Part shown: positions 7,658 to 64,000 of the stretch, piece by piece
Position numbering within the stretch: the first letter of the stretch is position 1
Layout: each line of letters starts with the position of its first letter
NCBI RefSeq assembly: GCF_009914755.1
Contig: NC_060939.1
Origin: the human T2T-CHM13v2.0 reference genome, Homo sapiens
Length of the DNA: 64,000 bases
Reading direction: 5' to 3' (one strand)
Notes under the pieces: model-generated
What the model was told of the DNA's origin: nothing
The model's database searches: none
Seen by the model: only the letters and a program-made list of their open reading frames with translations
Made by a program: the position numbers and the translations under genes

Positions 7658-28624
<20,967 letters not shown>

Positions 28625-29719
28625 CAAATTTAACCGATGGTGGTTGTTTCATTATCTGTGGTTAAAAAAAAAAAAAACTTTTGAGGCAATTTTAAAGATG
28701 GATATCTGTCTCCTTATATGTCCCTTATATCAGATAATAAATCAATGAGGACAAAAAAAGAATGTGTAAAATTTGTTACCAAAAACAAAAAGAACGATGC
28801 CTTTTCAGATTAAAACATACATATATAGATAATAATTTATTTTTTAAAATCATTTCAATTGATATCTGTAATAAAATAAAGCTTCAAAGAAAAAATTCAC
28901 CCCATCCTGGCTTACTTTTTAGGTAATTTACGTCTAATTAGAAATTCAGTCTTTCAACAAATATCTATTGCTTACCTGCCAAGGTAAGGCTCTATGTCAA
29001 GTGCTAAGGGGGATACAAAGATATAAAAGACACAATCCTATTTTCAGCGAGCTGACTTTCTGGTTGGGAAGATGAGACAAACATTTGATAAACAAGAAAA
29101 TATTTCACAATTCAAAAGAGGCAGGACATAACTACAGACAAAACCCTGGACAGAAAGAATTTTTTTTGTAAATAGTAGTTTAGAGAATACAGCAAGCACT
29201 TTACTTGATATAGTTGACACCGGGTTTACGGAAGAGGTAGAAGGTGGGTTGCGGTCTTGAAGGATGGCTAGAACTTTATGATTATATCAGAGAAGACACC
29301 ATTCAAGGAAGCCATAATAGCATGAATTGGAAAGTGCATAATTTATTTGAGAAATGTGAAGAAACCATGTAGTTGGATCCATGAGCTTAGGACAGCCAGA
29401 TACTGCATCTTGAGACTTTTAATTAAAAATTCAACCATCATTTCTATACCTAACTTCTGCAAAACTTCTATATGTAATATTTTTAAAACCTTTACTAATT
29501 AAGTAACCAGCATTACTGTATTTACTGTAGTATTCTTACTAAAATGCATATTCTCATTCTAATCTCATAATCCAAATTCATAATCTCATTCGAGTCATGA
29601 GAAACCCTTAGACAAACCTAAATTAAGGGACATTCTTCAAAACACCCAACCAGTTACTCTTCAAAGTGTCAAGGACTTGAGTCATACGTTTTATAACATG
29701 TATTACAAAAACATACAAA

Positions 29720-30081
<362 letters not shown>

Positions 30082-30602
30082 CTATATGAGACTAAGGAGG
30101 CATAACAACTAACTGTAATGTGGGATCCTGGAACAAAAAAAAAGAGGACATTAGAGGCAACCGGTAAAATTCAAATGCATTTGGTAGTTAGCAGCACTAT
30201 TCTCATGTTTTATTTTTCCCTTTTCAGGAAGAATTCGAAAGGAGCAGTCAGGGTATTGCATGCCATCATTACACAGAGATATGAATCAAGTATCATGCAA
30301 CTCCAACTACCACATTCTGCTGCCCTCCAAAAGGAGGCACAGGTAAGGATTATCCCGCCTGACTAACACTATACCAATGTTAATTCCCAGGTTTTGCTAA
30401 CTATACTATAGACCTATAAGATGTGAACATTAAGAGCAGCTGGGCAAAAGCTATACAGGAGTTCTCAACTATTTTTTAATCTTTTCTCTAAAAGTAGTTT
30501 AGAATTAAAAGTTAAACACAAAAATTTCCACTGATGAAGGCTTCCCATAAACTATCAAATATGGTTATAAGAGGAAAAAAGGAAACACAGAATATTGTGT
30601 AA

Positions 30603-30830
30603 AGCAAGCTTGTCCAACCCGCAGCCCGTGGGCTGGATGCGGCCCAAGACGGCTTTGAATATGGCCCAACACAAATTCATAAACTCTCTTAAAACATTGT
30701 AAGAATTTTTTTGCAATTTTTTTTTATTGGTTTTTTAGTTCATCAGCTATTGTTAGTGTATTTTATGTGTGGCCCAAGACAATTCTTCTTCCAGTGTGGC
30801 CCAGGGAAGCCAAAAGACTGGACACCCCTG
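30603..30830. mobile_element. MER30-like DNA transposon
   Basis: ttgtccaacccgcagcccg...gaagccaaaagactggacacccctg. Confidence 0.75.
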
Positions 30831-31116
30831 GGAAAGATATCACAAATTGTTCTAGAAAGCCCATTTTGAAAATGCGCCAATGCACATCAAACTTAGCATA
30901 ATAAAGTTACACTGCCAGACATATGAACTCACAAAAAGAATTAGCTCCATTATGAAAAACAGCTAAATCATCTATATAAAATGCTGTCTATCTAGAAAAT
31001 AAACATGAATCCAAAAACCCTTACATTGTTCTAAACCACACTAATGTTCCCAATGAGACAAGAAAAAAACAGTCATGAATTAATACAGAAAAAGATATTT
31101 AAAAAAGAAAAAGAAG

Positions 31117-31449
<333 letters not shown>

Positions 31450-32136
31450 TTAAAATAGAGAATAAGTAGTGGAATGTGAGTATGTTGGGGAGCTGGAAGT
31501 CAAGACAAAACAGAGGGACTTAGAAATGCATCTGTTTTTTAAAGTAAATACTCATTATCCCCCAGCAATAAAGTATTATATTCCAAAAGACAAGAAGCAA
31601 AAAAACTCACAGTGGTTTAGAAGTACATTGTGAACCATGACTCCTCAAGTTCCCATAGTGTCTCCCCACCATCTCCCCTGCAGTATTAACAACCTGTGAC
31701 AGGGCAGGGCTTCCGTGTGATCTGCCTGCCCAGCCCAGCCTGGTGAGCAGTGCCCTCTGACTGCTTCTGCCTTCAAAACACATCAGAGACTAGAATACTT
31801 AGAGTGATTCACATTAGTGCAGATGGAGAAACGATGGGACTGAGAGCTAAGGTCTGAGGTCAAGAGGCTGGCAACCCCTCCGTGGCATGTGGAAGAAAGC
31901 AGTAGTGAGAAGCAGAGCTGACTCATTCAAAACAGAGGGGGGAAAACTTAGAACTCCAGTGAAGCGGAAGTGAAGGCAGAGGAAAGGGTTGCAGACAGAG
32001 CGGGAGCTGGAAATGCAGACATGCAGCACAAATGAAAGAGTAGCGGACAAGAGAAACAGGAAAGATTAGACAGTAAATAATATTCTGAATGAAAATCTTA
32101 TGCAGATTTCAGATCTCAGTAAAGTCTACAACTCAC

Positions 32137-32261
32137 TTGTCAGAGTGCTTTCTGCACCTTTGGATTGTCAATAATGGGGGTGACAACAAGATCTGAGTCG
32201 TGTAGATAAGCTCTCTCATCTGGGATTCCAGGTCCTGCTGACTCAGGTGTCCACTTGTAAT
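32137..32261 (-). other. CHRFAM7A: FAM7A exon C (125 nt, 5' leader, ULK4-derived)
   Basis: CAG acceptor, GTGAGT donor; ITSGHLSQQDLESQMRELIYT then (frameshifted) SDLVVTPIIDNPK, ULK4-like. Confidence 0.9.
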
Positions 32262-32601
32262 CTGAAATGAGAACAAAAATTTGACTTTGTTTCTGTGACT
32301 AATATAGAGCTTTAAAACACTGAACTAATATGATGCTGAGGAAGACACCACTGTAAAATATCACCTATATCAATGTACTTCCACTGCTATTCAAGACACT
32401 TGCAGTCTCACTTGATTTTCACAAAAATCCTAAACTGTAGGTACCATAATTTCCATTTTACAGATAAAAATATAAAACTCTGAGAAAGTAACTGAATTGC
32501 TCATGTTACCATTAAAACTGGCTAGGACTACAAAAAAGATCTTTACAATTCAACGTTCTAAACTCTGATGAGGCAAACTGCTTTTTCGATTACCAGCATG
32601 G

Positions 32602-33110
<509 letters not shown>

Positions 33111-33545
33111 TAACATACAAAAATTTTCAGACTTAAATACAGACCGGTTACCTAAGTGTTAAACCTCAATTATTTATTAAGCCTCATTAGAGATGATACA
33201 TAATAAAATCAATCACCAGACATTCACCATCAGTTATTCCTTTGAGATGGTTCTTTGTGCTCTATTTAAACATAATTTGTATTCCTAGTGCTATGCCCCA
33301 GTATTTCCCATCAGAAAAAAAAAAAGGATTTATGCTTAAGAACCTTAAAAGAAACAATGACTAGCAAACTAAATAAAATAGAAAAGTAAATCAGTGAAGT
33401 AAGGAAGAAGGAAAATAAATTATCCAAAACTAGTGAGGAAGGGTCATAGATAAAGGAACAGAGTTAGCTAAGAAAATTCCTGGAAACCCAAGGTGCCCCT
33501 TGCAACTCAGATGAAAGATATACGAAAACACACAAAGAGGCCGAG

Positions 33546-33792
33546 GCCGGGCACGGTGGCTCAAGCCTGTAATCCCAGCAATTTGGGAGGCCGAGGCGGG
33601 TGGATCACGAGGTCAGGAGTTCAAGACCAGCCTGACCAACATGGTGAAACACTGTCTCTACTAAAAATACAAAAATTAGCTGGGTGTGGTGGCATGTGCC
33701 TGTAATCCCAGCTACTCAGGAGGCTGAGGCAGGAGAATCACCTGAACCTGGGAGGCGGAGGTTGCAGTGAGTTGAGATTGTGCCACTGCACC
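33546..33792 (+). mobile_element. Alu, 3' truncated
   Basis: Consensus stops at ccactgcac. Confidence 0.9.
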
Positions 33793-34251
33793 AATTAAAA
33801 CAATTGTATGCAAAAATTAGTTTCCTATAGGTAAATTGAGTGTAGGCACAAATGCCAAGTTATAACAAATATCCCACTCACAATAGCAAAAATATATAAA
33901 ACAAAATGTTCAGGAATAAACTAAATGATCAATAATTGCAATGAGATCATGATCATTAAATGAAAATAATCGTTATAAAATTATACTCTCTTGCTTCAAA
34001 GTGAACACATTATGTATAAAACCAGAAGTAGTAATATCAAAATGTATGAGATGTATGAGGTTACAGTGAACTATGATGGTGCCACTGCACTCCAGCCTGA
34101 GCAACAGGCTCTAAAAAAAAAAAAAAAGGTAATCAGTGTTTACTTGGGAATTACATTGTAAATACTTTTTCTATTGTCTTTGTCCTCTTTTATATTTTAC
34201 AAGTTTTTTACAATTATATATGTTTTGTAATAGAATAAAAAGTATCATTTA

Positions 34252-34589
<338 letters not shown>

Positions 34590-34636
34590 CTACCTTAGGT
34601 ATTCACATTATTGATTATATTTTCTCAATAGAATGA

Positions 34637-35003
<367 letters not shown>

Positions 35004-35229
35004 CAGAATAAATTTTTAAATTTACATTGATTTTCTATTTCACATAACCAAAAAATTAGCACAGTCAGATTTTATTATAACCAATTTATACTAAATTTCA
35101 AAGCAGAAATAAGCTTCACAAGGTCCAAATACAGTTCACATTACATCAAAACTACAGTTAAAAACTAAAAGCAATTATATTTGTCAACCAATAAGTAGCA
35201 TAAAAATTACTTAGAATTAATTCAAAGTA

Positions 35230-36795
<1,566 letters not shown>

Positions 36796-36796
36796 C

Positions 36797-36985
36797 CAGC
36801 AGTCCCCAAACTTTTTGGCATCAGGAGCCAGTTTTGCAGAAGACAATTTTTCCACAGACAAGGTTGGGGGAGATGATTTTGGGATGATTCAAGGACATTA
36901 CATTTATTGTGCATTTTATTTCTATTATTATTACATTGTAACATATAATGAAATAATTGTACAACTCACTATAATATAGAATCAG
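36797..36985 (+). mobile_element. MER1-like DNA transposon, left part only
   Basis: cagcagtccccaaactttttggcatcagg...cattacatttattgtgca...ataatatagaatcag. Confidence 0.75.
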
Positions 36986-37350
<365 letters not shown>

Positions 37351-37489
37351 TTAAAAAGGAAAATAAGATCAATATAAACTAAGAAAGAATTATTACAGAA
37401 CAAAGAGATTCTAGGGAGAAGACAAAAGAGTATCAAAATCACTTCGTAAAGATACTTGTGAATATATTACATGTATAAAACAAAACAGA

Positions 37490-38125
<636 letters not shown>

Positions 38126-38129
38126 AAAA

Positions 38130-39130
38130 AACCGAAAATCTTAAAGGCCTTTCCCCTTCCCCGCCTGGGCTCCAACAACGCGGGAGCCGCCCTGCCCCGC
38201 CCTGTCGCGGTCCCTAGAGCAGGTGGGCTGACTGAGGGCGACCATGGGTCCCAAGAGGGCTCCCGCAGCCGCGGGCTCCCACCTCGAGGCGCAGCGACAG
38301 GGGCCGAGAGGGGCCAGCAGCCCCCAAGCCAGCCCCGCGCTAGGAGTTGGAGAGACGCGCCCTCCGCCTTCTCCCACCCAAGCCTCTGCCTTGCCGGGCG
38401 GGCCAGTTGCGGGAGAAAGGGGCGGGGAACCGCGGCCTCTCTGGGGCAGCTTCCCCTTTCTCCTGGGACTCTGGGCACCCGCTTTCCGCCCTCGCCCTGC
38501 CCCGCCAGGCCGCCACCCGGCGACTCACCTTAATGTTGCGGTGGGGCGTGAGCCGCGGCTGTGGCTCCTGGTTCTCCTGGAAGATAGAGGCCAGTAACTT
38601 CGGTTTGGCCTTGAACCCGGACATGGACATCTTCCCCTCACCTCCGGCGGGAGGGGCGCGGAAAAGGAGCCTGTCCCGAGCCGCTGTCATGGCCGCGACC
38701 ACCAGGCGGGGCCCCCGGCCGAGCTCTCGCGGCTCCACCTCTCCCCGCCGCCGTGACCCTCGTGGGAGCGCGGCTGGAAAATGGCAAGGGGCACCGAGGA
38801 CTTGGCGGGAGCTATGTGGCGGCCTGCGGGGCTGCTCCCTTTATAACCGACTCCACCGACAGGAGGCGCGGCTCCCGTCAAGCCGCAGTTTAAAAGGGCA
38901 ACAGCACCACTGCCCCCGCTACCGCCTGGGAAAGGGCTGCCCCTACCCCGCCCCGGTCCTCGTCGCCCCTCACCTCTTACCCCTCACCCCTCACCCCTCA
39001 ACCCGGCGCGCCCCGCGCGCACCCGGCGTGCCCGCGCTACCGGCTGCCCCCTCCTCTCTTGACCCAGCACCTTTCTGCCCGACCGATCTGGTCCCTTCCT
39101 CACACTCGCGACTGGGCGGCACAACCACCA
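38130..39130 (-). promoter_or_regulatory. CpG-island promoter of CHRFAM7A/FAM7A
   Basis: Very high GC and CpG density; minus-strand TATAAA at 38845-38840; GC box CCCCGCCCC at ~38947-38955. Confidence 0.75.
38529..38830 (-). other. CHRFAM7A: FAM7A exon D (first exon; 5' end approximate), UBE2Q2 exon-1-like
   Basis: AAG|GTGAGT donor at 38528; lies in a CpG island; encodes MSMSGFKAKPKLLASIFQENQEPQPRLTPHRNIK. Confidence 0.85.

Positions 39131-39134
<4 letters not shown>

Positions 39135-39172
<38 letters not shown>
39135..39172. repeat. (TG)n microsatellite upstream of exon D
   Basis: Direct reading. Confidence 0.9.
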
Positions 39173-39177
<5 letters not shown>

Positions 39178-39186
39178 GTCCCAAGG

Positions 39187-39920
<734 letters not shown>

Positions 39921-43968: not shown

Positions 43969-45846
43969 CATGTGGCCAACCGCCTCGCCTCTAGCGCTGG
44001 GAATCAGTCACCGTGCTGTCCTTTTGGAGTCTTGTGGCCAAACAAGAGAAAGCTAACCCCTGACATTGCCCCTCCAAAGTGCGCTACCTTCAGTGAGCCT
44101 CCCTGTCACGCCCAGCCTATGGAGAGACACACCCCGCCATCCCTCCCGCCCCCCCCCCCCCACCAAGCATGGGAGTGCTGTGCAGGCAGCTGTGTGGCCT
44201 GACAGTCTCTACCAGTCCTGCTGTCCCTTGGCTGAGAATCAAACCCGCTTCTGGATGGCGGGGAAGTGTGTCCTCTGCTGGCTGTGTTCTCTGTGGAGCT
44301 CAGGGGAGGGGAAAGGCCAAGCCATTTCTAGGGTGCTGTTGGGAGCAGTGAAAAGGCCATGCCCTTTCCAAGGGACACTTTTCCTGGAAAGCCCCTGGAG
44401 CTTAGCGGGCTCTTATCCTGTGAAGCCGGCTCTGGCCACCAGGGGGCAGGGCCATGAACTCAGCCCAGAGGGAGCCTGCAGGGCAGCCGGCACTCTGGAG
44501 GCACAGACAGAACAGGCCACCAGGTGCAGACAGGAGAGGGAGACAAGGGGATAGAACGGAAGATGCCGGGGCTGGGTGGAAGTCAGTGCCCTTAGGTGCT
44601 GGTACCTGTCTTCCCGGCCACCGCTAGATCAGGCTTCTGAGCCTGTTGGCTGTCAGGGCCAGACTGCGCCCCATAGACTACATGGCAGTCCCCTTGGAAT
44701 CCCCCAGGCGCCACCAGGCAGCATACAGGTAACACGCCTGGAAGGTCCCCAACAGCCTAGCTGGACATGCTCAAGACACTCTGGGACTCCTTGTTTGGTG
44801 GCACAAACTCCAGGACCCAGTGAGGGAAACGGAAACACACCAGGCCGAGCAGTATGGCTAAATCCATTTATTCCAAAATAAAAAGCAAAATAAACAGGAG
44901 TCGCATCACCAGGGAGCCACGACCCCATCCCCGCCTCCTTCCTCTGTCCTATGCTAGCAATAAATAAGTTTCCCAGCCACAAATAATTATTACAACCTCC
45001 TCCCCATGTGCCGGCTCCAACCTCAGCTAGGTATGACACAGGGGTGGCCCTACCCTCTGGAATATACAAAACCTTACACAGACACAATGTGTACACCGGG
45101 GAACGGGGGCCACCCCAGCAGCCCGTGCCCTCGCCTGGTCCACAGTTAGCCCCACTGTCCTGCCTCTCTGAATAAGAAGGGAGCCCCCCTGAGGGAAAAG
45201 TTGCTATGGTGAGAGTAAGGGGGACATCAGGCCTCCTCCAAACAAACCAACTCCACCAGCCTCTGGCTCTTAAATAACAATCATCATCATCCAGAAATTT
45301 AGGGACTCAGCCCTGGTCAGGGTGGCAAAGGGTCTGTTTGTCTTTCCCCATTAGACAGAGGTCTTGTCCTGCTACCCTAATTGTAAAGGGGTGCCTGGGA
45401 AGGGGTGGTAGGGACATGGTGGCGGTGGAGACTCCGGCCCCACTTCTCCAGGCTTTGCTGACAGGGGCCTGCTTTTAATTTTTATTTTTATTCCATGACT
45501 TTTTAAAAAAGAATCCCGTAACTTCTTTTTCATAACTTTTTTGGTAACTTTTCATAATACTGTTTTCTACTTTGTTCCCACAAGTTTTTTTGCCACAACG
45601 TTTTTACATTTTTTATCCCATAACTTTTTCACCCCATAACTTTTTTAATCCCATAACTTTTAAAATCTTGTGTTCTTTTAAGAAACACTTGCATAGTTAT
45701 ATCACAACTTTGTAAAAATGAAACACATTATCTCATGCCAAGCATGCCCAGCATTTGCACAGTATCAATACCTTTAATACTATAGTTTTCAAGAAACGCA
45801 AAATAAAATTTTAAGACAAAAACAACACATTGAAACAACTTAATAA

Positions 45847-45852
45847 TTTATT
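45847..45852 (-). terminator. Candidate AATAAA for the long GOLGA8 3' UTR (another at 44872-44867)
   Basis: TTTATT on the + strand, with U-rich sequence downstream on the - strand. Confidence 0.5.
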
Positions 45853-48800
45853 ACATTACAGTGGCATCACACCAGCAGTCAATAAGGCCACTCTAGGGAA
45901 AAATCTTTCAGTATTTCCACGACACATTCTCTTTACAATAATTCATAAACTGGTAAAATTCATTCTAAGAAAACTTGGCAAATAAAACTTTGGACTGGAA
46001 TTGGCATTTCTTTCTCTGCTTTTCGTTCCCACCATTTCTTTCTTTTATACTACAGTATTCATATTTTAAAATGTTTTAAATTATTTCAGAACATTAAGAT
46101 AGCAGTTACATTTTTTAATAGTTATTTTAAAATGACTCTTTAAAATAAAGTTTTAGAGAAACTATATTATGGATAGGGCTGATTTACATTTTCAAATTTT
46201 CTAAAATCAGCTTTGGTTTTAGAGCTGATTTTTTTTTTCATTTCTGGAAAATTATCAGGTTTAATCAAATACTTTTAAAATGATTATTATACATTGCCAT
46301 CTTTAAATAGGTATTTTGATTCTTCCTACAGAAATCAAAATGTATTCAGTGGAACTCACAGTTTAAAATTCTATGTTTCTGATGAACTCTAACATTCCAA
46401 TGTTGCCTTCTAAGCAAACTGAAAGCTGCCTTATACTGAATGAGGAAGAGCACAAATACTCGGCTGAATGAGGTATCACAAAAGACTGCATGCACTTTGG
46501 AGAAAGACTTGAGTTATTGTCATACAATTTCCATTCTTTTTAGCTTTTTCTTAAATATATGACAAATACCTACACAAAGAGTGGTATTTCAGTCAATATA
46601 GTAAATTTATTTTCCAGACTGACCTTCAGCTTAAATATGCCAGTGTGTGATTTAATCCATAGGCACCTCATGAACACATTATTGTCAGATTGGTTACAGA
46701 TGCTAAACGCTATCCGAAGGTCATTCCTAGTCACTGATATTTATCAGGGTAAAAGTGAAGTGATTTCAACGATAAAAGTACCTTTGCAATAATTTATCAA
46801 TGTATTAGATAAACCCAGTTTCAGAATGATAAAAGAAAAAACGTTAGACCAAATAATGTGGCTGATTAACAGTGGTCCGATTTCTAGCCCGAGGGTTTAA
46901 AATGCTCTTAAAGTAACTGTCTTTAAACTGAACTCAAAGAATGCAAAAGCGGCAAGTTCAGAAAATAAAAGGCGAGAACAGGACTTTAAGTGCATTTTAA
47001 ACCCACGGGCTACAAATCGTACCACTGTTAATTAGCCGCATTATTTGGTCTAAGATTTTTTCTTTATCATTCTGAAACTGGGTTTATCTAATACATTGAT
47101 ACATTCATAAAATTTGGAAGAGTCAGTGGAAGTCACAAGGACCGAATATTTGCACTCTTTCAGTGAATGCCAGCAAATCTGTTATTCCATCGGTAAAATC
47201 GTATTGTTGCTCTCCTGTTAATGTCATATTTATAGAAGTATCATGAGGATGCCAAATGCTAAAAATGGAGATGATCTAGTAACTAGAAATCCCCACCGCA
47301 GGGAGCACACACACCTATCTCCCTGCATCCTAACAATGTGATGTGTTTTGGAACACAGACATTAGAACTTCATGAAGTTTTAACTGTTGAGTCTTTCCCA
47401 AGCATCATCAAGTTACGATTTAGGCAATACATAACTGAAATGCATTCATTCATCATGCATAGGCACAATCACATAAATATTGCACAAAATATGTCCCGAA
47501 CAGAAACCCAGAGGTACAAAAACATATTTCACTTTGTAAAGAAGTTTGTGAGAAAATATAACTCTGTGGTTGTATAGACACGTTTCCTGATAATACATTG
47601 ACATTCACGAACAACAGTAGATTGCACTGCAGTTTGTACACATTTTAAGTTTCATAAACTTCTCCTTGATTTTCAAAGATAGTATAATACCATCTACTAA
47701 AACTCCTTTTTGTTTCAACTATCTCACATATATTAGTTTATAAGAATGTTTCTATTTTTTTAAAGTGTTTTCCATTCAAAGAAAAAGAAGTAAATTCCTA
47801 TGTCAGAGTAACCAAGGTGGTTGAAGAATAGGTATTAGCCAAAGAGGTCTAGATGGTAAAATCAATCTTCAAGCCTCAAAGAATCTCCGTGAACAGAGAG
47901 GAATGCCAGGAGTCACACAGCTTTCCTTCACTCTAATTCATTCTTGACTAGAGCCTGTATGCCTGTTCCAGGGACATTTGAACTCGTAAAGGATTTCTTA
48001 TGATCTTCACTAAATACATTAAGAAGAATGCCAACCAGTGCCCTTTTGTGTACTGGGGCATGTAGTCATGTGATTAAAACAGGTAACATGAACTCTGACT
48101 TTAAAATGTATTGTAGATACAAATGCTCTAAGCTAGGAAAGGTTTTCCACATCCACAGTCAACGATGGGAACCTTTCATTCCTCAGAAATAAGCCCTTTT
48201 TAGGTCATCGAAAAAGAGTGCAACTGCTGCAGCTCATGATGCAATATCTTCATGAGCCCAGAGCACATACAAATCCTAAGGGCACCACCATAATACACCG
48301 CTAATTCCTGGCACCGGAACAGATGAAACACACTCTATCTTGCACATACCTGCCAGAGGAGGCCACTTTCCTCTTCTGTGAGATTTAAAAAGCTCCCCCA
48401 AAAGGTTATCACTCCCATCACCAATACACAGAAAATGGAGGAAAGGCTGTTTCCAATTCTTGGCCTTTAAACAACTCTAAATGTCAGTACTCATAGTGGC
48501 GTATTACAAAGTAATAAACAGTGCACACTTGGGGGCAAACTACATATTGAGCTAAGGAAGAGCTCACTGTGATTAAGATTACATCAAACAACAGCAGAAC
48601 ATAGGCAAATTTTGTCTGAATGCTGTAGTGAATATACATGCTGCAATAACATTAAAAAAGCATGGCAGCCTATTCCAAACCAAAGAGAACAGTTTTGGGC
48701 AAAGAGTGGGTCTTTGTGTGTTTGAACTCCCACCACGTAAGGGCAAACTCGATATGCACGCTAATGACCTACAATTATGAAATTAAAAAAGAAAAATGCT

Positions 48801-49011
48801 AAAGGATGCCAGAGTGAACATCAGTGAGAGCCACAGACACCCACTCTCTTTTAACTTTTTACAAATAAACTTAAACTATAAATTAGAAACACAAATAATC
48901 ATGAGTGAGTCTAACATTCAAAGGAAGTAAATGAATTGTGTAGGAGATTAACCCCATAACTTGGTTTCTTATTTAAAAATTTCTTGAGCAGCTGTTTGAT
49001 GATGGTGATGT

Positions 49012-59436
<10,425 letters not shown>

Positions 59437-59559
59437 TGCAGGGTGGGGAGGGAGGAAGGGTTGGGGCCACAGCAGCAAAATCCCAATAAGAACCGATCAA
59501 GGCCTCCAGTCACCTACCAGGCAGCTGTGTGACTGAGCCAGAGGAGGCGTAACCAGGGC

Positions 59560-60170: not shown

Positions 60171-60490
<320 letters not shown>

Positions 60491-60798
60491 TAATAGTAAG
60501 AGCAATGTGAACAAAAGATGCAATAAAATAATTTAGAAAATACAAACTATTAAAAAATAGATTTTAAAACTTGTGCAACGAAGTCAAACAGCAGCCAATG
60601 AAAATGTATACCCTTACACGTTTGTTTAAAAAGCAATTTAAATTACATTGATCCACTAAACTAGGAAAAGCAAAACAAACAAAAAGGGGGAAATAATTAA
60701 GACCTAAGGAAAAAGAAAAACCACTAGATTTAAAAAATAAAACTAAAGGAGGATTCTTTCAAAAGACTGAGATAATAAAACAGTCAAGCCTCTGATAA

Positions 60799-61220
<422 letters not shown>

Positions 61221-61344
61221 AAAGTGTTCATTTTTTTTTAAGAACCTACAGTTACGAAAAGTAACTGAAGAAGTGGGAAATCTGGAGACCAATATGCAGA
61301 AGAAGGAAAAAGACAAAGACTCATCCTCCAAATTGGATATTTAA

Positions 61345-61565
61345 ACCAGAATTTGTCATCCTCAGCAATATTGATATATTGGGCCAGATAATTCTTTGTG
61401 GAGGGTTCTCTTGGTGTGTTGTCGGGCATTTAGTAAACATTCCCTCTACCCACAGAATGCCAATGAGACCTCCCGACCATGACCAGTTGTGACCACAAAA
61501 ATGTCTCCAGATATTTCCAAACGTCCCATAGGAGGCAAAATACTCCTGCAGTTGAAAATTACTGT
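61345..61565. mobile_element. MER20-like DNA transposon
   Basis: ttgggccagataattctttg...aaaaatgtctccagatatt...gttgaaaattactg. Confidence 0.75.
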
Positions 61566-62476
61566 GTAAACCAGATCTACATCCTAGATCTTAGAAAAAA
61601 GATGTAAAGCTTCCCAACTCAGCCCTGCATACCCTTGATACTGAAATAACAGCCTTAAAGGAAACAAACAAAACTATAATCTTATTTAATACAGAAGTAA
61701 AAATGCAAAAATAAAATATTACCATAGCCATTCTAACAGTGTTTATTATAGGAATGCAAAGATAATTCAAAATTAGGAAAATTTCATCAGGCAATTCACA
61801 AATTATATTTCTACATATAATTGAAGGCACAATCATGAAAAACAAAGTAGCTCTATATGCATTAAGTCCATGATCTATTCAGTGAAAAACACAAGTTGCA
61901 CATGTCTTACAGAAGGAAAACTTAACACTGAACACAGATTCTCACCATCTGCTCTTTGTCCTGAGGCTCCAATAGAAATACAGTGAAGAATAAACATTGT
62001 ATAAGCACACAATTACAAAAAAGGAATGGGGTTACCAACAGAAGAGAATTCATCTTCATTAGACAATGACAGTACATGGAAAATGGTTAATTCATGGAGC
62101 AAAGCAATAAAGGTGGAGGTCAGGGGGATACTGAGAACAAGGAGGCTAATCTGTCCCCAGCAACCTAGAAAGGTTCTAGACTCAGACACGAGGTACCCCC
62201 GACAGTGGGACTGATAGGCAAGACTGAAAACAGAGATTAAGCAAAAGCCCGGATAGAGAACACATTTCACAGGCCCTGAAACACACTGCTGGCCCCATCT
62301 CCTTAAACAGAACCCAAGCAAACGTATCCACCTCAGGCAAGAGAATGTAGATTTTACATCCAGAGGAATGGAGTAGTCATCCAGCCATCATTTATGATTG
62401 CAACAGGAGATAAGATAGAGGGATGGAGGATAACAATTAGGAATCAGCATACATTCCCCTTAAAGCTATCAGTTGA

Positions 62477-62848
<372 letters not shown>

Positions 62849-62912
62849 CCCAGTCTTTTAGTACCTCTCTCAAATATGAATGAACAAATAAAGGAATGGA
62901 AAAAAGACTACA

Positions 62913-63214
<302 letters not shown>

Positions 63215-63449
63215 GACTACAAATGATAAGCAACATAGAATAGATATTTAAGGAAAGGCTTTAAAAAGAAAAATAAGACCAAAATAAACTAAGAAAAAAA
63301 TTATTAAAGAACAAGGAGATGCCAGGGAGAAGACAAAGAGTATCAAAATCACTTCATAAAGACACTTGTGAATATATTACATGTATAAAACAAAACAATA
63401 TGAATAAGAAATAATCAGAGAAGAAAAAGTTCTTAGAACTCATGCTCCA

Positions 63450-63975
63450 TCTTGGGAGTTGGTCTCCAATGAGCCATACCTCCTGTCATCATGTCCTCAG
63501 ACAGGCCCATCCCATAGTCAATCTGGGTTGGCCCCAACACTCACTTTAACCTATAGCATGTGGTAGAAATGACACTGGACCTGTTCCAGGTCTAAGCCTT
63601 AAGAACTCCTGGCAGCTCCATTTCTGTGCTTCTGGAAGCCAAAAATAAGAATTGGCTACCTTCTTGGAGAAAGAAAAGCCACATGAAGAGATCCGAGAGG
63701 ATGAGATGCTATGCAGAGAGAAAGGCCACATCAAGAATCACCAAGGCAGCAGACCTGTGGGTAAAGAAGCCGTCTCAGACATTCCACTGCAGCTGAGCAT
63801 CCAGATGACCAGTCCCTGACACTGTTTAACCACACAGTGAGAGCTGCCAAATGAGACCAGCAGAAAAACTGTCCAGCTAGCCCCAGGTAATCCATACAGT
63901 CGTGACAGATAGACAGATGTGTAGTTTTAGGCCATTAGGTTTTGGGATAATTGGTTAAGCAACAATAAATAACCA
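63450..63975 (+). mobile_element. MLT1-type LTR
   Basis: ggtctaagccttaagaa...ggcagctccatttctg...ttaggttttgggataattggtt. Confidence 0.6.
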
Positions 63976-64000
63976 AAACAAAACTTAAAGTTATGACAGT

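What the first reader, a model, noticed from the sequence alone, without database searches (positions are those of the whole stretch)
38529..38960. CHRFAM7A exon D looks like UBE2Q2 exon 1: a three-gene chimera with a borrowed promoter
Seen: exon D encodes MSMSGFKAKPKLLASIFQENQE-PQPRLTPHRNIK|gt. Recalled UBE2Q2 N-terminus: [22 protein letters not shown][~26 aa][11 protein letters not shown], which I recall ending its first exon at the same point. Exon D thus appears to be that exon with an in-frame internal deletion. UBE2Q2 pseudogenes are known companions of chr15 GOLGA duplicons, while reviews, as I recall, call exon D of unknown provenance. This implies CHRFAM7A is driven by a UBE2Q2-derived CpG promoter, which would explain expression unlike CHRNA7.
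Basis: partly seen in the sequence, partly recalled or inferred. Interest (0 to 1): 0.85.

Follow-up and report, generated by a model that had tools for sequence, protein, structure and literature searches.

The report
CHRFAM7A exon D is UBE2Q2-derived
The first main exon and CpG-island promoter of the human-specific gene CHRFAM7A are an old, diverged copy of the promoter and exon 1 of the ubiquitin-conjugating enzyme gene UBE2Q2, which refines the textbook statement that this exon is "homologous to GOLGA8B".

Summary
Window 38630-38529 (- strand) encodes MSMSGFKAKPKLLASIFQENQEPQPRLTPHRNIK|gt. About 1 kb (38136-39115) aligns colinearly with chr15:73713978-73715036 (E about 1e-82). That locus encodes [22 protein letters not shown]...LTLHCNIT|gt, and a downstream exon there is 29/29 identical to PDB 1ZUO, which is UBE2Q2. 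The start codon and splice donor are the same, and exon D has one in-frame 78-bp deletion.

New details:
- The same deletion is in all 16 other copies found (15q13, 15q14, 15q25, 15q26, chrY), and UBE2Q1 keeps the segment. Exon D therefore came from an old UBE2Q2 pseudogene duplicon that travels with GOLGA8, not directly from UBE2Q2.
- The block is 79% identical to the parent but is still a CpG island.
- Its best-conserved 30-mer straddles the RefSeq exon-D start.
- The ORF is a decayed relic. It forms a 76-codon upstream ORF and is not part of the protein.

Reviews say it is "homologous to GOLGA8B". I found no similarity to the GOLGA8 gene body. The GOLGA8B-side homolog is itself a UBE2Q2 pseudogene copy. 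No searchable paper links CHRFAM7A to UBE2Q2.

The finding is solid but modest: it settles provenance. Whether the promoter behaves like UBE2Q2's is untested.

The parts
39071..39176 (-). RefSeq alternative first exon (probably 'exon F' of the literature). It holds a (CA)n run at 39130-39172 and, from about 39126 down, the 5'-most UBE2Q2-homologous DNA. Its GT donor at 39070 is GA in UBE2Q2.
   Evidence: Annotation supplied with the finding; sequence; multiple alignment.
38631..39126 (-). Homolog of the UBE2Q2 5' flank and 5'UTR, which is the CpG-island promoter part of the borrowed block.
   Evidence: Identity to the parent is 66% upstream of the RefSeq exon-D start and 85% in the 5'UTR part. 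GC 0.70 and CpG obs/exp 0.76 over 38130-39130.
38914..38943 (-). Most conserved 30-mer of the whole block (29/30 columns invariant across 8 lineages including UBE2Q2). It straddles the RefSeq exon-D start at 38938.
   Evidence: alignment.
38529..38630 (-). Relic of the UBE2Q2 exon-1 coding sequence: 34 codons with the same ATG and the same GT donor. The 78-bp in-frame deletion junction is at about 38566/38565.
38124..38528 (-). Homolog of the first 420 bp or so of UBE2Q2 intron 1 (80% identity).
37492..38123 (.). Inverted Alu pair inserted in the pseudogene founder. It is present at the same site in the 15q14, 15q25, 15q26 and chrY copies and is flanked by a 14-bp repeat of parent sequence 73715023-73715036.
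36986..37487 (-). Piece of UBE2Q2 intron 1 from about 18.6-19.1 kb into the intron (parent 73733086-73733253 plus the parent's adjacent Alu). It is paralogous to window 62918-63397.
36216..36499 (.). Alu that contains the upstream end of ULK4 homology (36403). This is the junction zone between UBE2Q2-pseudogene DNA and ULK4-derived DNA. 36500-36985 is unassigned.
24000..36403 (-). ULK4-derived segment (chr3:41912144-41923959, 83-93% identity) carrying exons C, B, A and 25625-25671. The lower limit was not mapped below 24000.
60481..64000 (-). Second UBE2Q2-derived block (intron 1, parent 73732470-73735781, 80-86% identity), upstream of GOLGA8R. It shows that GOLGA8R is embedded in UBE2Q2-pseudogene DNA.

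Best explanation
CHRFAM7A exon D, with the roughly 500 bp upstream and 400 bp downstream of its ORF, is a copy of the promoter, exon 1 and start of intron 1 of UBE2Q2.

How it got there:
1. The copy was not taken directly from UBE2Q2. An old partial duplication produced a founder pseudogene that lost 78 bp of exon 1 and gained an inverted Alu pair in intron 1.
2. That founder spread with GOLGA core duplicons over chr15 and to chrY.
3. One GOLGA8-flanking copy later received a ULK4 segment downstream (junction in or near an Alu at about 36.4 kb). This formed the FAM7A unit, in which the UBE2Q2-type exon 1 splices to ULK4 exons.
4. The human-specific CHRNA7 exon 5-10 duplication landed behind that.

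The UBE2Q2-derived block supplies a retained CpG-island promoter, the annotated transcription start, most of the 5'UTR and the start of an upstream ORF. It does not contribute to the annotated protein.

Shown: the homology, the shared derived characters, the anatomy and the CpG-island retention. Inferred: that this block is the working promoter, and the order of the rearrangements.
For: - Homology to UBE2Q2: E 1e-81 to 1e-85, colinear over about 1 kb.
- Parent identity confirmed by a 29/29 match to PDB 1ZUO.
- Same ATG and donor, one 78-bp gap.
- The identical gap is in all 16 non-parental copies. UBE2Q1 on chr1 and a chr3 copy keep the segment, so the deletion is derived.
- Shared inverted Alu pair with a 14-bp flanking repeat.
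- Tree: the four near-identical exon-D copies form a 100/100 clade nested among the pseudogene copies.
- ULK4 homology starts at 36403.
- CpG island kept: GC 0.70, obs/exp 0.76. Of 112 aligned parent CpGs, 51 are kept, and the copy has 91 CpGs in all, so about 40 lie at other positions. Non-CpG divergence is 19%. This is unlike germline-methylated DNA.
- The best-conserved 30-mer straddles the RefSeq exon-D start.
- A review states that a roughly 2-kb promoter upstream of and overlapping exon D drives expression in leukocytes.
Against: - No expression, CAGE or ChIP data could be examined, so promoter use rests on the RefSeq annotation and one review sentence.
- Only about 190 bp of UBE2Q2-derived DNA lies upstream of the annotated exon-D start. 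The published 2-kb promoter fragment also includes an Alu and DNM1P-flank DNA.
- A long-read study reports a CHRFAM7A isoform that starts at the downstream exon where the ORF begins, bypassing exon D.
- The block is 21% diverged from UBE2Q2, so UBE2Q2-like regulation cannot be assumed.
- Four near-identical copies of this promoter exist (three without CHRNA7 exons), so short-read or array evidence cannot assign activity to CHRFAM7A.
Confidence: 0.87

Rival explanations
1. Exon D derives from GOLGA8B, as the CHRFAM7A reviews state.
For: [quoted passage not shown] The closest non-FAM7A paralog (84% identity, covering both exon D and the alternative first exon) lies about 14 kb downstream of the GOLGA8 copy at chr15:32.334 Mb. 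That copy is 2.37 Mb distal to CHRNA7, matching the reviews' description of GOLGA8B. Every exon-D-type copy sits 13-14 kb downstream of a GOLGA8 gene.
Against: The exon-D block has no significant similarity to the GOLGA8R gene body (best hit 20 bp, E 0.04). The copy on the GOLGA8B side carries the same 78-bp deletion and Alu pair and then continues into UBE2Q2 intron 1, so it is itself a UBE2Q2 pseudogene. The statement is true as a neighbourhood or immediate-source description, not as the ultimate origin.
Confidence: 0.08
2. Exon D was captured directly and recently from UBE2Q2 when the chimera formed (the simple 'three-gene fusion' reading).
For: The transcript does contain pieces traceable to three genes (and the annotation).
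Against: Identity to UBE2Q2 is only 79%, against 90-92% for the ULK4 part and about 100% for the CHRNA7 part. The deletion and Alu pair are shared with 12 copies outside the FAM7A units, including chrY.
Confidence: 0.02
3. The similarity is a GC-rich or low-complexity coincidence, or UBE2Q2 exon 1 was itself derived from the duplicon.
For: The region is 70% GC. Weak GC-rich hits on chr7 also appear.
Against: The match is colinear over 1 kb with E about 1e-82 and keeps the ATG, frame and donor. The paralog UBE2Q1 on chr1 has the same exon architecture, including the 26 residues missing from the copies and the ...HCNIT exon end, so the UBE2Q2 form is ancestral.
Confidence: 0.01
4. The block is UBE2Q2-derived, but the promoter activity that matters for CHRFAM7A protein comes from elsewhere: the upstream Alu/DNM1P flank, or an internal start at the ORF-bearing exon.
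For: A long-read capture study found an isoform that starts at the ORF-bearing exon and argued it is more likely to be translated. The exon-D ATG opens a 76-codon upstream ORF that would hinder translation of the main ORF. The published promoter fragment is about 2 kb, of which only about 0.5 kb is UBE2Q2-derived.
Against: RefSeq places both annotated starts at or beside the UBE2Q2-derived CpG island. The TSS-spanning block is the most conserved element. The CpG island has not decayed.
Confidence: 0.2

Closest known systems
UBE2Q2 pseudogene copies on 15q25 and chrY (the loci I take to be UBE2Q2P1/P2/UBE2Q2L and UBE2Q2P4Y/P5Y; the names are from my own knowledge and were not checked here)
   Same: Same founder: identical 78-bp exon-1 deletion, same inverted Alu pair in intron 1, retained CpG island.
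   Different: The exon-D lineage is 81-82% identical to the 15q25 and chrY copies, on a long branch. It keeps an intact ATG-to-donor ORF where most others have stops or frameshifts. It loses the continuation of intron 1 after the Alu pair and is joined to ULK4 sequence.
FAM7A / ULK4P units of 15q13 as described in CHRFAM7A reviews (exons A, B, C, E from ULK4; D and F 'homologous to GOLGA8B')
   Same: This is that unit. Four near-identical copies are found at chr15:27.895, 28.186, 28.366 and 30.231 Mb, matching the 'four FAM7A copies' of the reviews.
   Different: The D/F part is here traced to the UBE2Q2 promoter and exon 1, not to golgin sequence.
Promoter or first-exon capture by 5'-truncated human-specific duplicate genes (for example the class defined in Genome Res 2018, PMC6169893)
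   Same: A 5'-truncated duplicate (CHRNA7 exons 5-10) that lost its own promoter is transcribed from foreign upstream exons.
   Different: Here the captured promoter is itself a much older pseudogene relic of a housekeeping-type CpG-island gene, and it had already been joined to ULK4 exons before CHRNA7 arrived.

Membership tests
UBE2Q2 exon-1 pseudogene duplicon | Significant colinear nucleotide homology to the UBE2Q2 promoter, exon 1 and intron 1 | tested here: met
   E 6e-81 and 1.9e-82, window 38136-39115 against chr15:73713978-73715036. Parent identity confirmed by PDB 1ZUO.
UBE2Q2 exon-1 pseudogene duplicon | Same start codon and same exon-1 splice donor position as UBE2Q2 | tested here: met
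   Alignment A1; multiple alignment.
UBE2Q2 exon-1 pseudogene duplicon | Shared derived 78-bp exon-1 deletion | tested here: met
   The identical gap is in all 16 non-parental copies. The segment is present in UBE2Q1 and in a chr3 copy.
UBE2Q2 exon-1 pseudogene duplicon | Shared inverted Alu pair at the same intron-1 site | tested here: met
   Window 37492-38123 matches the same insert in the 15q14, 15q25, 15q26 and chrY copies. A 14-bp parent overlap flanks it.
GOLGA8-derived exon (literature attribution) | Sequence similarity to the golgin A8 gene body | tested here: not met
   Best hit of 38124-39130 against GOLGA8R 45834-59534 is 20 bp, E 0.04.
GOLGA8-derived exon (literature attribution) | A homolog within or next to the GOLGA8B locus | tested here: met
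   An 84% copy at chr15:32.320 Mb lies 14 kb downstream of the GOLGA8 copy at 32.334 Mb, which is 2.37 Mb distal to CHRNA7. That copy is itself a UBE2Q2 pseudogene.
CpG-island promoter | Length over 200 bp, GC over 0.5, CpG obs/exp over 0.6 | tested here: met
   1001 bp, GC 0.699, obs/exp 0.76.
CpG-island promoter | Transcription starts inside it and it drives expression | not testable with these tools
   RefSeq exon starts are at 38938 and 39176 (annotation supplied). A review reports a 2-kb promoter overlapping exon D that is active in leukocytes. The primary papers are not held.
Functional UBE2Q2-like coding exon | Protein-level conservation of the N-terminal E2Q segment | tested here: not met
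   26 of 60 codons are deleted and 14 of the remaining 34 residues differ. The ORF ends before the annotated CDS start.

The most novel reading that the evidence does not exclude
The UBE2Q2-derived CpG island is not just a relic. It may be a portable promoter cassette kept active (unmethylated in the germline, with a constrained TSS element) in GOLGA-associated duplicons for tens of millions of years. It would seed new transcription units wherever the duplicon lands: the ULK4P/FAM7A transcripts, CHRFAM7A, and possibly long GOLGA8 read-through RNAs. CHRFAM7A's tissue pattern would then be partly inherited from a ubiquitin-enzyme housekeeping promoter.
Probability: 0.3. Interest if true: 0.6.

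Novelty: new member of a known kind. Interest (0 to 1): 0.4.

Why it matters
CHRFAM7A is a much-studied human-specific modifier of the alpha7 nicotinic receptor. Its regulation differs from CHRNA7 and matters for inflammation and neuropsychiatric work. Knowing that its promoter and first exon descend from the UBE2Q2 promoter has three uses:
- It corrects the review-level attribution to GOLGA8B.
- It gives a concrete comparator (the UBE2Q2 promoter and 16 paralogous copies) for finding the transcription-factor sites that drive it.
- It shows that the exon-D ATG is an inherited start codon that now opens an upstream ORF.

It also adds a documented case of a pseudogene promoter being reused by successive gene fusions inside a core-duplicon region. 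It does not change the protein model or the kind of mechanism already accepted for this gene.

Tried and rejected
- The first window-versus-parent BLAST was swamped by Alu hits and had to be filtered by depth.
- A PDB search with the UBE2Q2 exon-1 peptide found nothing. A downstream exon was used instead.
- The primary sources for the GOLGA8B attribution and for the promoter assays are not in the library (Sinkus 2015, Costantini 2015, Dang 2015). Only secondary statements could be cited.
- Literature searches: CHRFAM7A+UBE2Q2 gave 0 papers. UBE2Q2+CHRNA7 gave 2 irrelevant papers. UBE2Q2+duplicon gave 1 paper, and in the UBE2Q2/GOLGA8/segmental-duplication search the same paper (a CNV-method preprint, not read) was the only listed one that holds both UBE2Q2 and GOLGA8. 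UBE2Q2P/ULK4P names co-occur only in gene lists.
- A 2025 preprint on cis-regulatory divergence and a 2026 15q13.3 structure preprint discuss CHRFAM7A/FAM7A without mentioning UBE2Q2.
- Dating from divergence was considered and not pursued. The block is GC-rich, only 1 kb of it aligns to the parent, and no primate genomes are available here, so I give no age beyond 'much older than the ULK4 and CHRNA7 steps'.
- I could not check whether GENCODE/HGNC already annotate a UBE2Q2P pseudogene at this site. The RefSeq rows supplied for the window do not.

Full report
**1. Observation**

On the minus strand the window reads atg tcc atg tcc ggg ttc aag ... aac att aag | gtgagt. The RefSeq rows supplied with the finding make 38529-38938 an exon of CHRFAM7A and place the CDS start far downstream in 28592-28624. 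This ORF is therefore in the 5'UTR.

**2. Is it UBE2Q2?**

I searched window 38130-39130 against the whole T2T-CHM13 genome. The matches were:
- four essentially identical copies at chr15:27.895, 28.186 (this window), 28.366 and 30.231 Mb;
- an 84% copy at 32.320 Mb;
- 82% copies at 27.989 and 30.137 Mb;
- copies of about 80% at 80.309, 82.038, 82.117, 82.253 and 82.323 Mb and on chrY at 24.656 and 26.276 Mb;
- 82% copies at 97.570 and 99.503 Mb;
- two colinear matches at chr15:73713978-73715036 (72-75%, E 6e-81 and 1.9e-82).

The last locus has an ORF [60 protein letters not shown] that ends at a GT. A downstream exon of the same locus, about 32 kb further on (L031:2957-3043), is 29/29 identical to PDB chain 1ZUO_A, 'hypothetical protein LOC92912'. 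UBE2Q1 (2QGX) is the next hit. LOC92912 is the GeneID of UBE2Q2 (my own knowledge). The parent is therefore UBE2Q2.

The pairwise alignment shows the same start codon, the same donor and one 78-bp (26-codon) gap that keeps the frame. At protein level the first 22 residues alone give E 1e-8.

**3. Direction and route**

All 16 non-parental copies have exactly the same 78-bp gap. UBE2Q1 on chr1 has the corresponding residues ([35 protein letters not shown] ... IHCNIT at the exon end). A further UBE2Q2-like copy on chr3:72.046 Mb also keeps them. The UBE2Q2 form is therefore ancestral, and the deletion happened once, in a founder pseudogene.

A second shared derived character is an inverted Alu pair (window 37492-38123). 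It is inserted about 420 bp into intron 1 and flanked by a 14-bp repeat of parent sequence 73715023-73715036. It is present at the same site in the 15q14, 15q25, 15q26 and chrY copies.

A maximum-likelihood tree rooted on UBE2Q2 puts the four exon-D copies in a 100/100 clade on a long stem (0.12). That clade is weakly (81/83) sister to the 32.320 Mb copy. Identity of exon D to UBE2Q2 is 78.6% (85.5% in columns that never hold a CpG), and 81-85% to the other pseudogene copies. By contrast the ULK4-derived part is mostly 90-93% identical to chr3, with two blocks at 83% and 86%, and CHRNA7 exon 10 is about 100% identical. So exon D reached CHRFAM7A through an old UBE2Q2 pseudogene duplicon, not by direct capture.

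**4. Anatomy of the 5' end (minus strand, 5' to 3')**

| Window coordinates | Content |
|---|---|
| 39176-39071 | RefSeq alternative first exon. Contains (CA)n at 39130-39172. The GT donor at 39070 is GA in UBE2Q2. |
| ~39126-38631 | UBE2Q2 5' flank and 5'UTR homolog. |
| 38630-38529 | Exon-1 CDS relic. |
| 38528-38124 | Start of intron 1. |
| 38123-37492 | Inverted Alu pair. |
| 37487-36986 | Piece from about 18.6-19.1 kb into UBE2Q2 intron 1, with its adjacent Alu. Paralogous to window 62918-63397. |
| 36985-36500 | Unassigned. |
| 36499-36216 | Alu that contains the end of ULK4 homology at 36403. |
| 36403 down to at least 24000 | ULK4 (chr3:41912144-41923959), carrying exons C, B, A and 25625-25671. 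|

In the other paralogs UBE2Q2 intron 1 simply continues after the Alu pair. The break near 37490 and the ULK4 junction are therefore specific to the FAM7A lineage. A second UBE2Q2 intron-1 block (window 60481-64000, 80-86%) lies upstream of GOLGA8R, so GOLGA8R sits inside UBE2Q2-pseudogene DNA.

**5. The literature's GOLGA8B attribution**

[quoted passage not shown] The exon-D block has no significant similarity to the GOLGA8R gene body (best 20 bp, E 0.04). Each exon-D-type copy lies 13-14 kb downstream of a GOLGA8 copy. The 84% copy at 32.320 Mb lies downstream of the GOLGA8 copy at 32.334 Mb, which is 2.37 Mb distal to CHRNA7 exon 10. This matches the reviews' 'GOLGA8B, 2.5 Mb 3' of CHRNA7'.

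That copy aligns to window 37492-39187, which covers both exon D and the alternative first exon. It carries the founder's deletion and Alu pair. The GOLGA8B statement therefore describes a neighbour relationship: the thing next to GOLGA8B is itself a UBE2Q2 pseudogene. I infer, but could not check, that old GOLGA8B gene models extended over it.

**6. Promoter reading**

- The 1-kb block is still a CpG island: GC 0.70 and obs/exp 0.76, against 0.74 and 0.87 in the parent.
- Of 112 aligned parent CpGs, 51 are kept and 29 went to TG/CA. The copy has 91 CpGs in all, so about 40 lie at other positions. Non-CpG sites diverged by 19%. CpGs have thus been lost only modestly faster than other sites. 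This is not what germline-methylated DNA shows (inference from established CpG-decay behaviour).
- The best-conserved 30-mer across eight lineages (29/30 invariant) is 38943-38914, which straddles the RefSeq exon-D start at 38938. With about 51% invariant columns overall, this is unlikely by chance under independence.
- A review reports that a roughly 2-kb promoter upstream of and overlapping exon D drives CHRFAM7A in leukocytes.

Together these support the view that the working promoter is UBE2Q2-derived. Several caveats apply:
- Only about 190 bp of UBE2Q2-derived DNA lies upstream of 38938.
- An isoform that starts at the ORF-bearing exon has been described.
- The sequence is 21% diverged from UBE2Q2.
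- Four near-identical promoters exist.
- No expression or binding data could be examined.

That CHRFAM7A lost the CHRNA7 promoter is already in the literature. The claim that UBE2Q2 ancestry 'explains' its expression is untested.

**7. The ORF**

- The exon-D ATG opens a 76-codon frame that runs through exon C and stops at the start of exon B, upstream of the annotated start.
- It enters exon C in the only frame that is open in the chr3 ULK4 exon. A 1-bp deletion after nucleotide 62 of exon C then shifts it.
- Fourteen of the 34 retained residues differ from UBE2Q2, and 26 residues are missing, so there is no sign of protein-level constraint.
- Most other copies have stops or frameshifts. The exon-D lineage and the 82.323 Mb copy keep the short ORF, which is unremarkable for 34 codons.

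**8. Novelty**

No paper in the searchable library contains both CHRFAM7A and UBE2Q2. Other term combinations gave only gene lists or irrelevant hits. Recent structural and regulatory papers on the locus do not mention UBE2Q2. The primary sources were not available, and database pseudogene annotation could not be checked.

I rate this as a new member of a known kind: an unrecognised copy of the UBE2Q2 pseudogene family that serves as promoter and first exon of a chimeric gene. It is robust and useful for people working on CHRFAM7A regulation. It is also a provenance refinement obtainable with one BLAST search, and it does not alter the protein or the accepted fusion mechanism.

Noticed in passing
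window 60481-64000: A second UBE2Q2-derived block (intron 1, parent chr15:73732470-73735781, 80-86% identity) lies upstream of GOLGA8R and is overlapped by the lncRNA LOC124907528. GOLGA8R is thus flanked on both sides by UBE2Q2-pseudogene DNA.
   Followed up: partly
window 37492-38123: A roughly 630-bp inverted Alu pair lies in the intron right after exon D. It is shared by all UBE2Q2 pseudogene copies and flanked by a 14-bp duplicated parent sequence. Such pairs can form long RNA hairpins in the pre-mRNA.
   Followed up: partly
window 38630 through exon C (32137-32261) to the start of exon B (28655): The exon-D ATG opens a 76-codon upstream ORF. It enters exon C in the native ULK4 frame and is broken by a 1-bp deletion at about 32200/32199. 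It ends just before the annotated CDS start.
   Followed up: yes
window 30233-30365 (-): Full-length U8 snoRNA match (Rfam RF00096, 78.6 bits against gathering 41). It sits at the edge of a 936-bp stretch (29344-30279) that has no counterpart in the chr3 ULK4 intron.
   Followed up: partly
window 39130-39172 and 39070: A (CA)n microsatellite sits exactly at the 5' edge of the UBE2Q2-derived DNA, inside the RefSeq alternative first exon. That exon's GT donor is GA in UBE2Q2, so the donor is a derived feature of the pseudogene lineage.
   Followed up: partly
L038 (chr3:72045953-72046087): Another UBE2Q2 exon-1-like open frame (73% amino-acid identity) that keeps the 26 codons missing from the chr15/chrY family. 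It is presumably an independent (processed?) pseudogene.
   Followed up: no
L015/L016 (chr15:97.570 and 99.503 Mb): The 15q26 copies have Alu insertions immediately 3' of the conserved TSS block, splitting the promoter from the exon.
   Followed up: no
chr15:73650099-73654447 (not fetched): A GOLGA-like copy (86% to GOLGA8R) lies about 60 kb upstream of the UBE2Q2 parent gene. The parent therefore sits next to a GOLGA duplicon, which may be how its 5' end was picked up.
   Followed up: no
window 38775-38782 region: A GCCATTTT element (YY1-like core, judged from memory of the consensus) lies within a block conserved in all lineages including UBE2Q2. It is a lead for promoter dissection only.
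   Followed up: no
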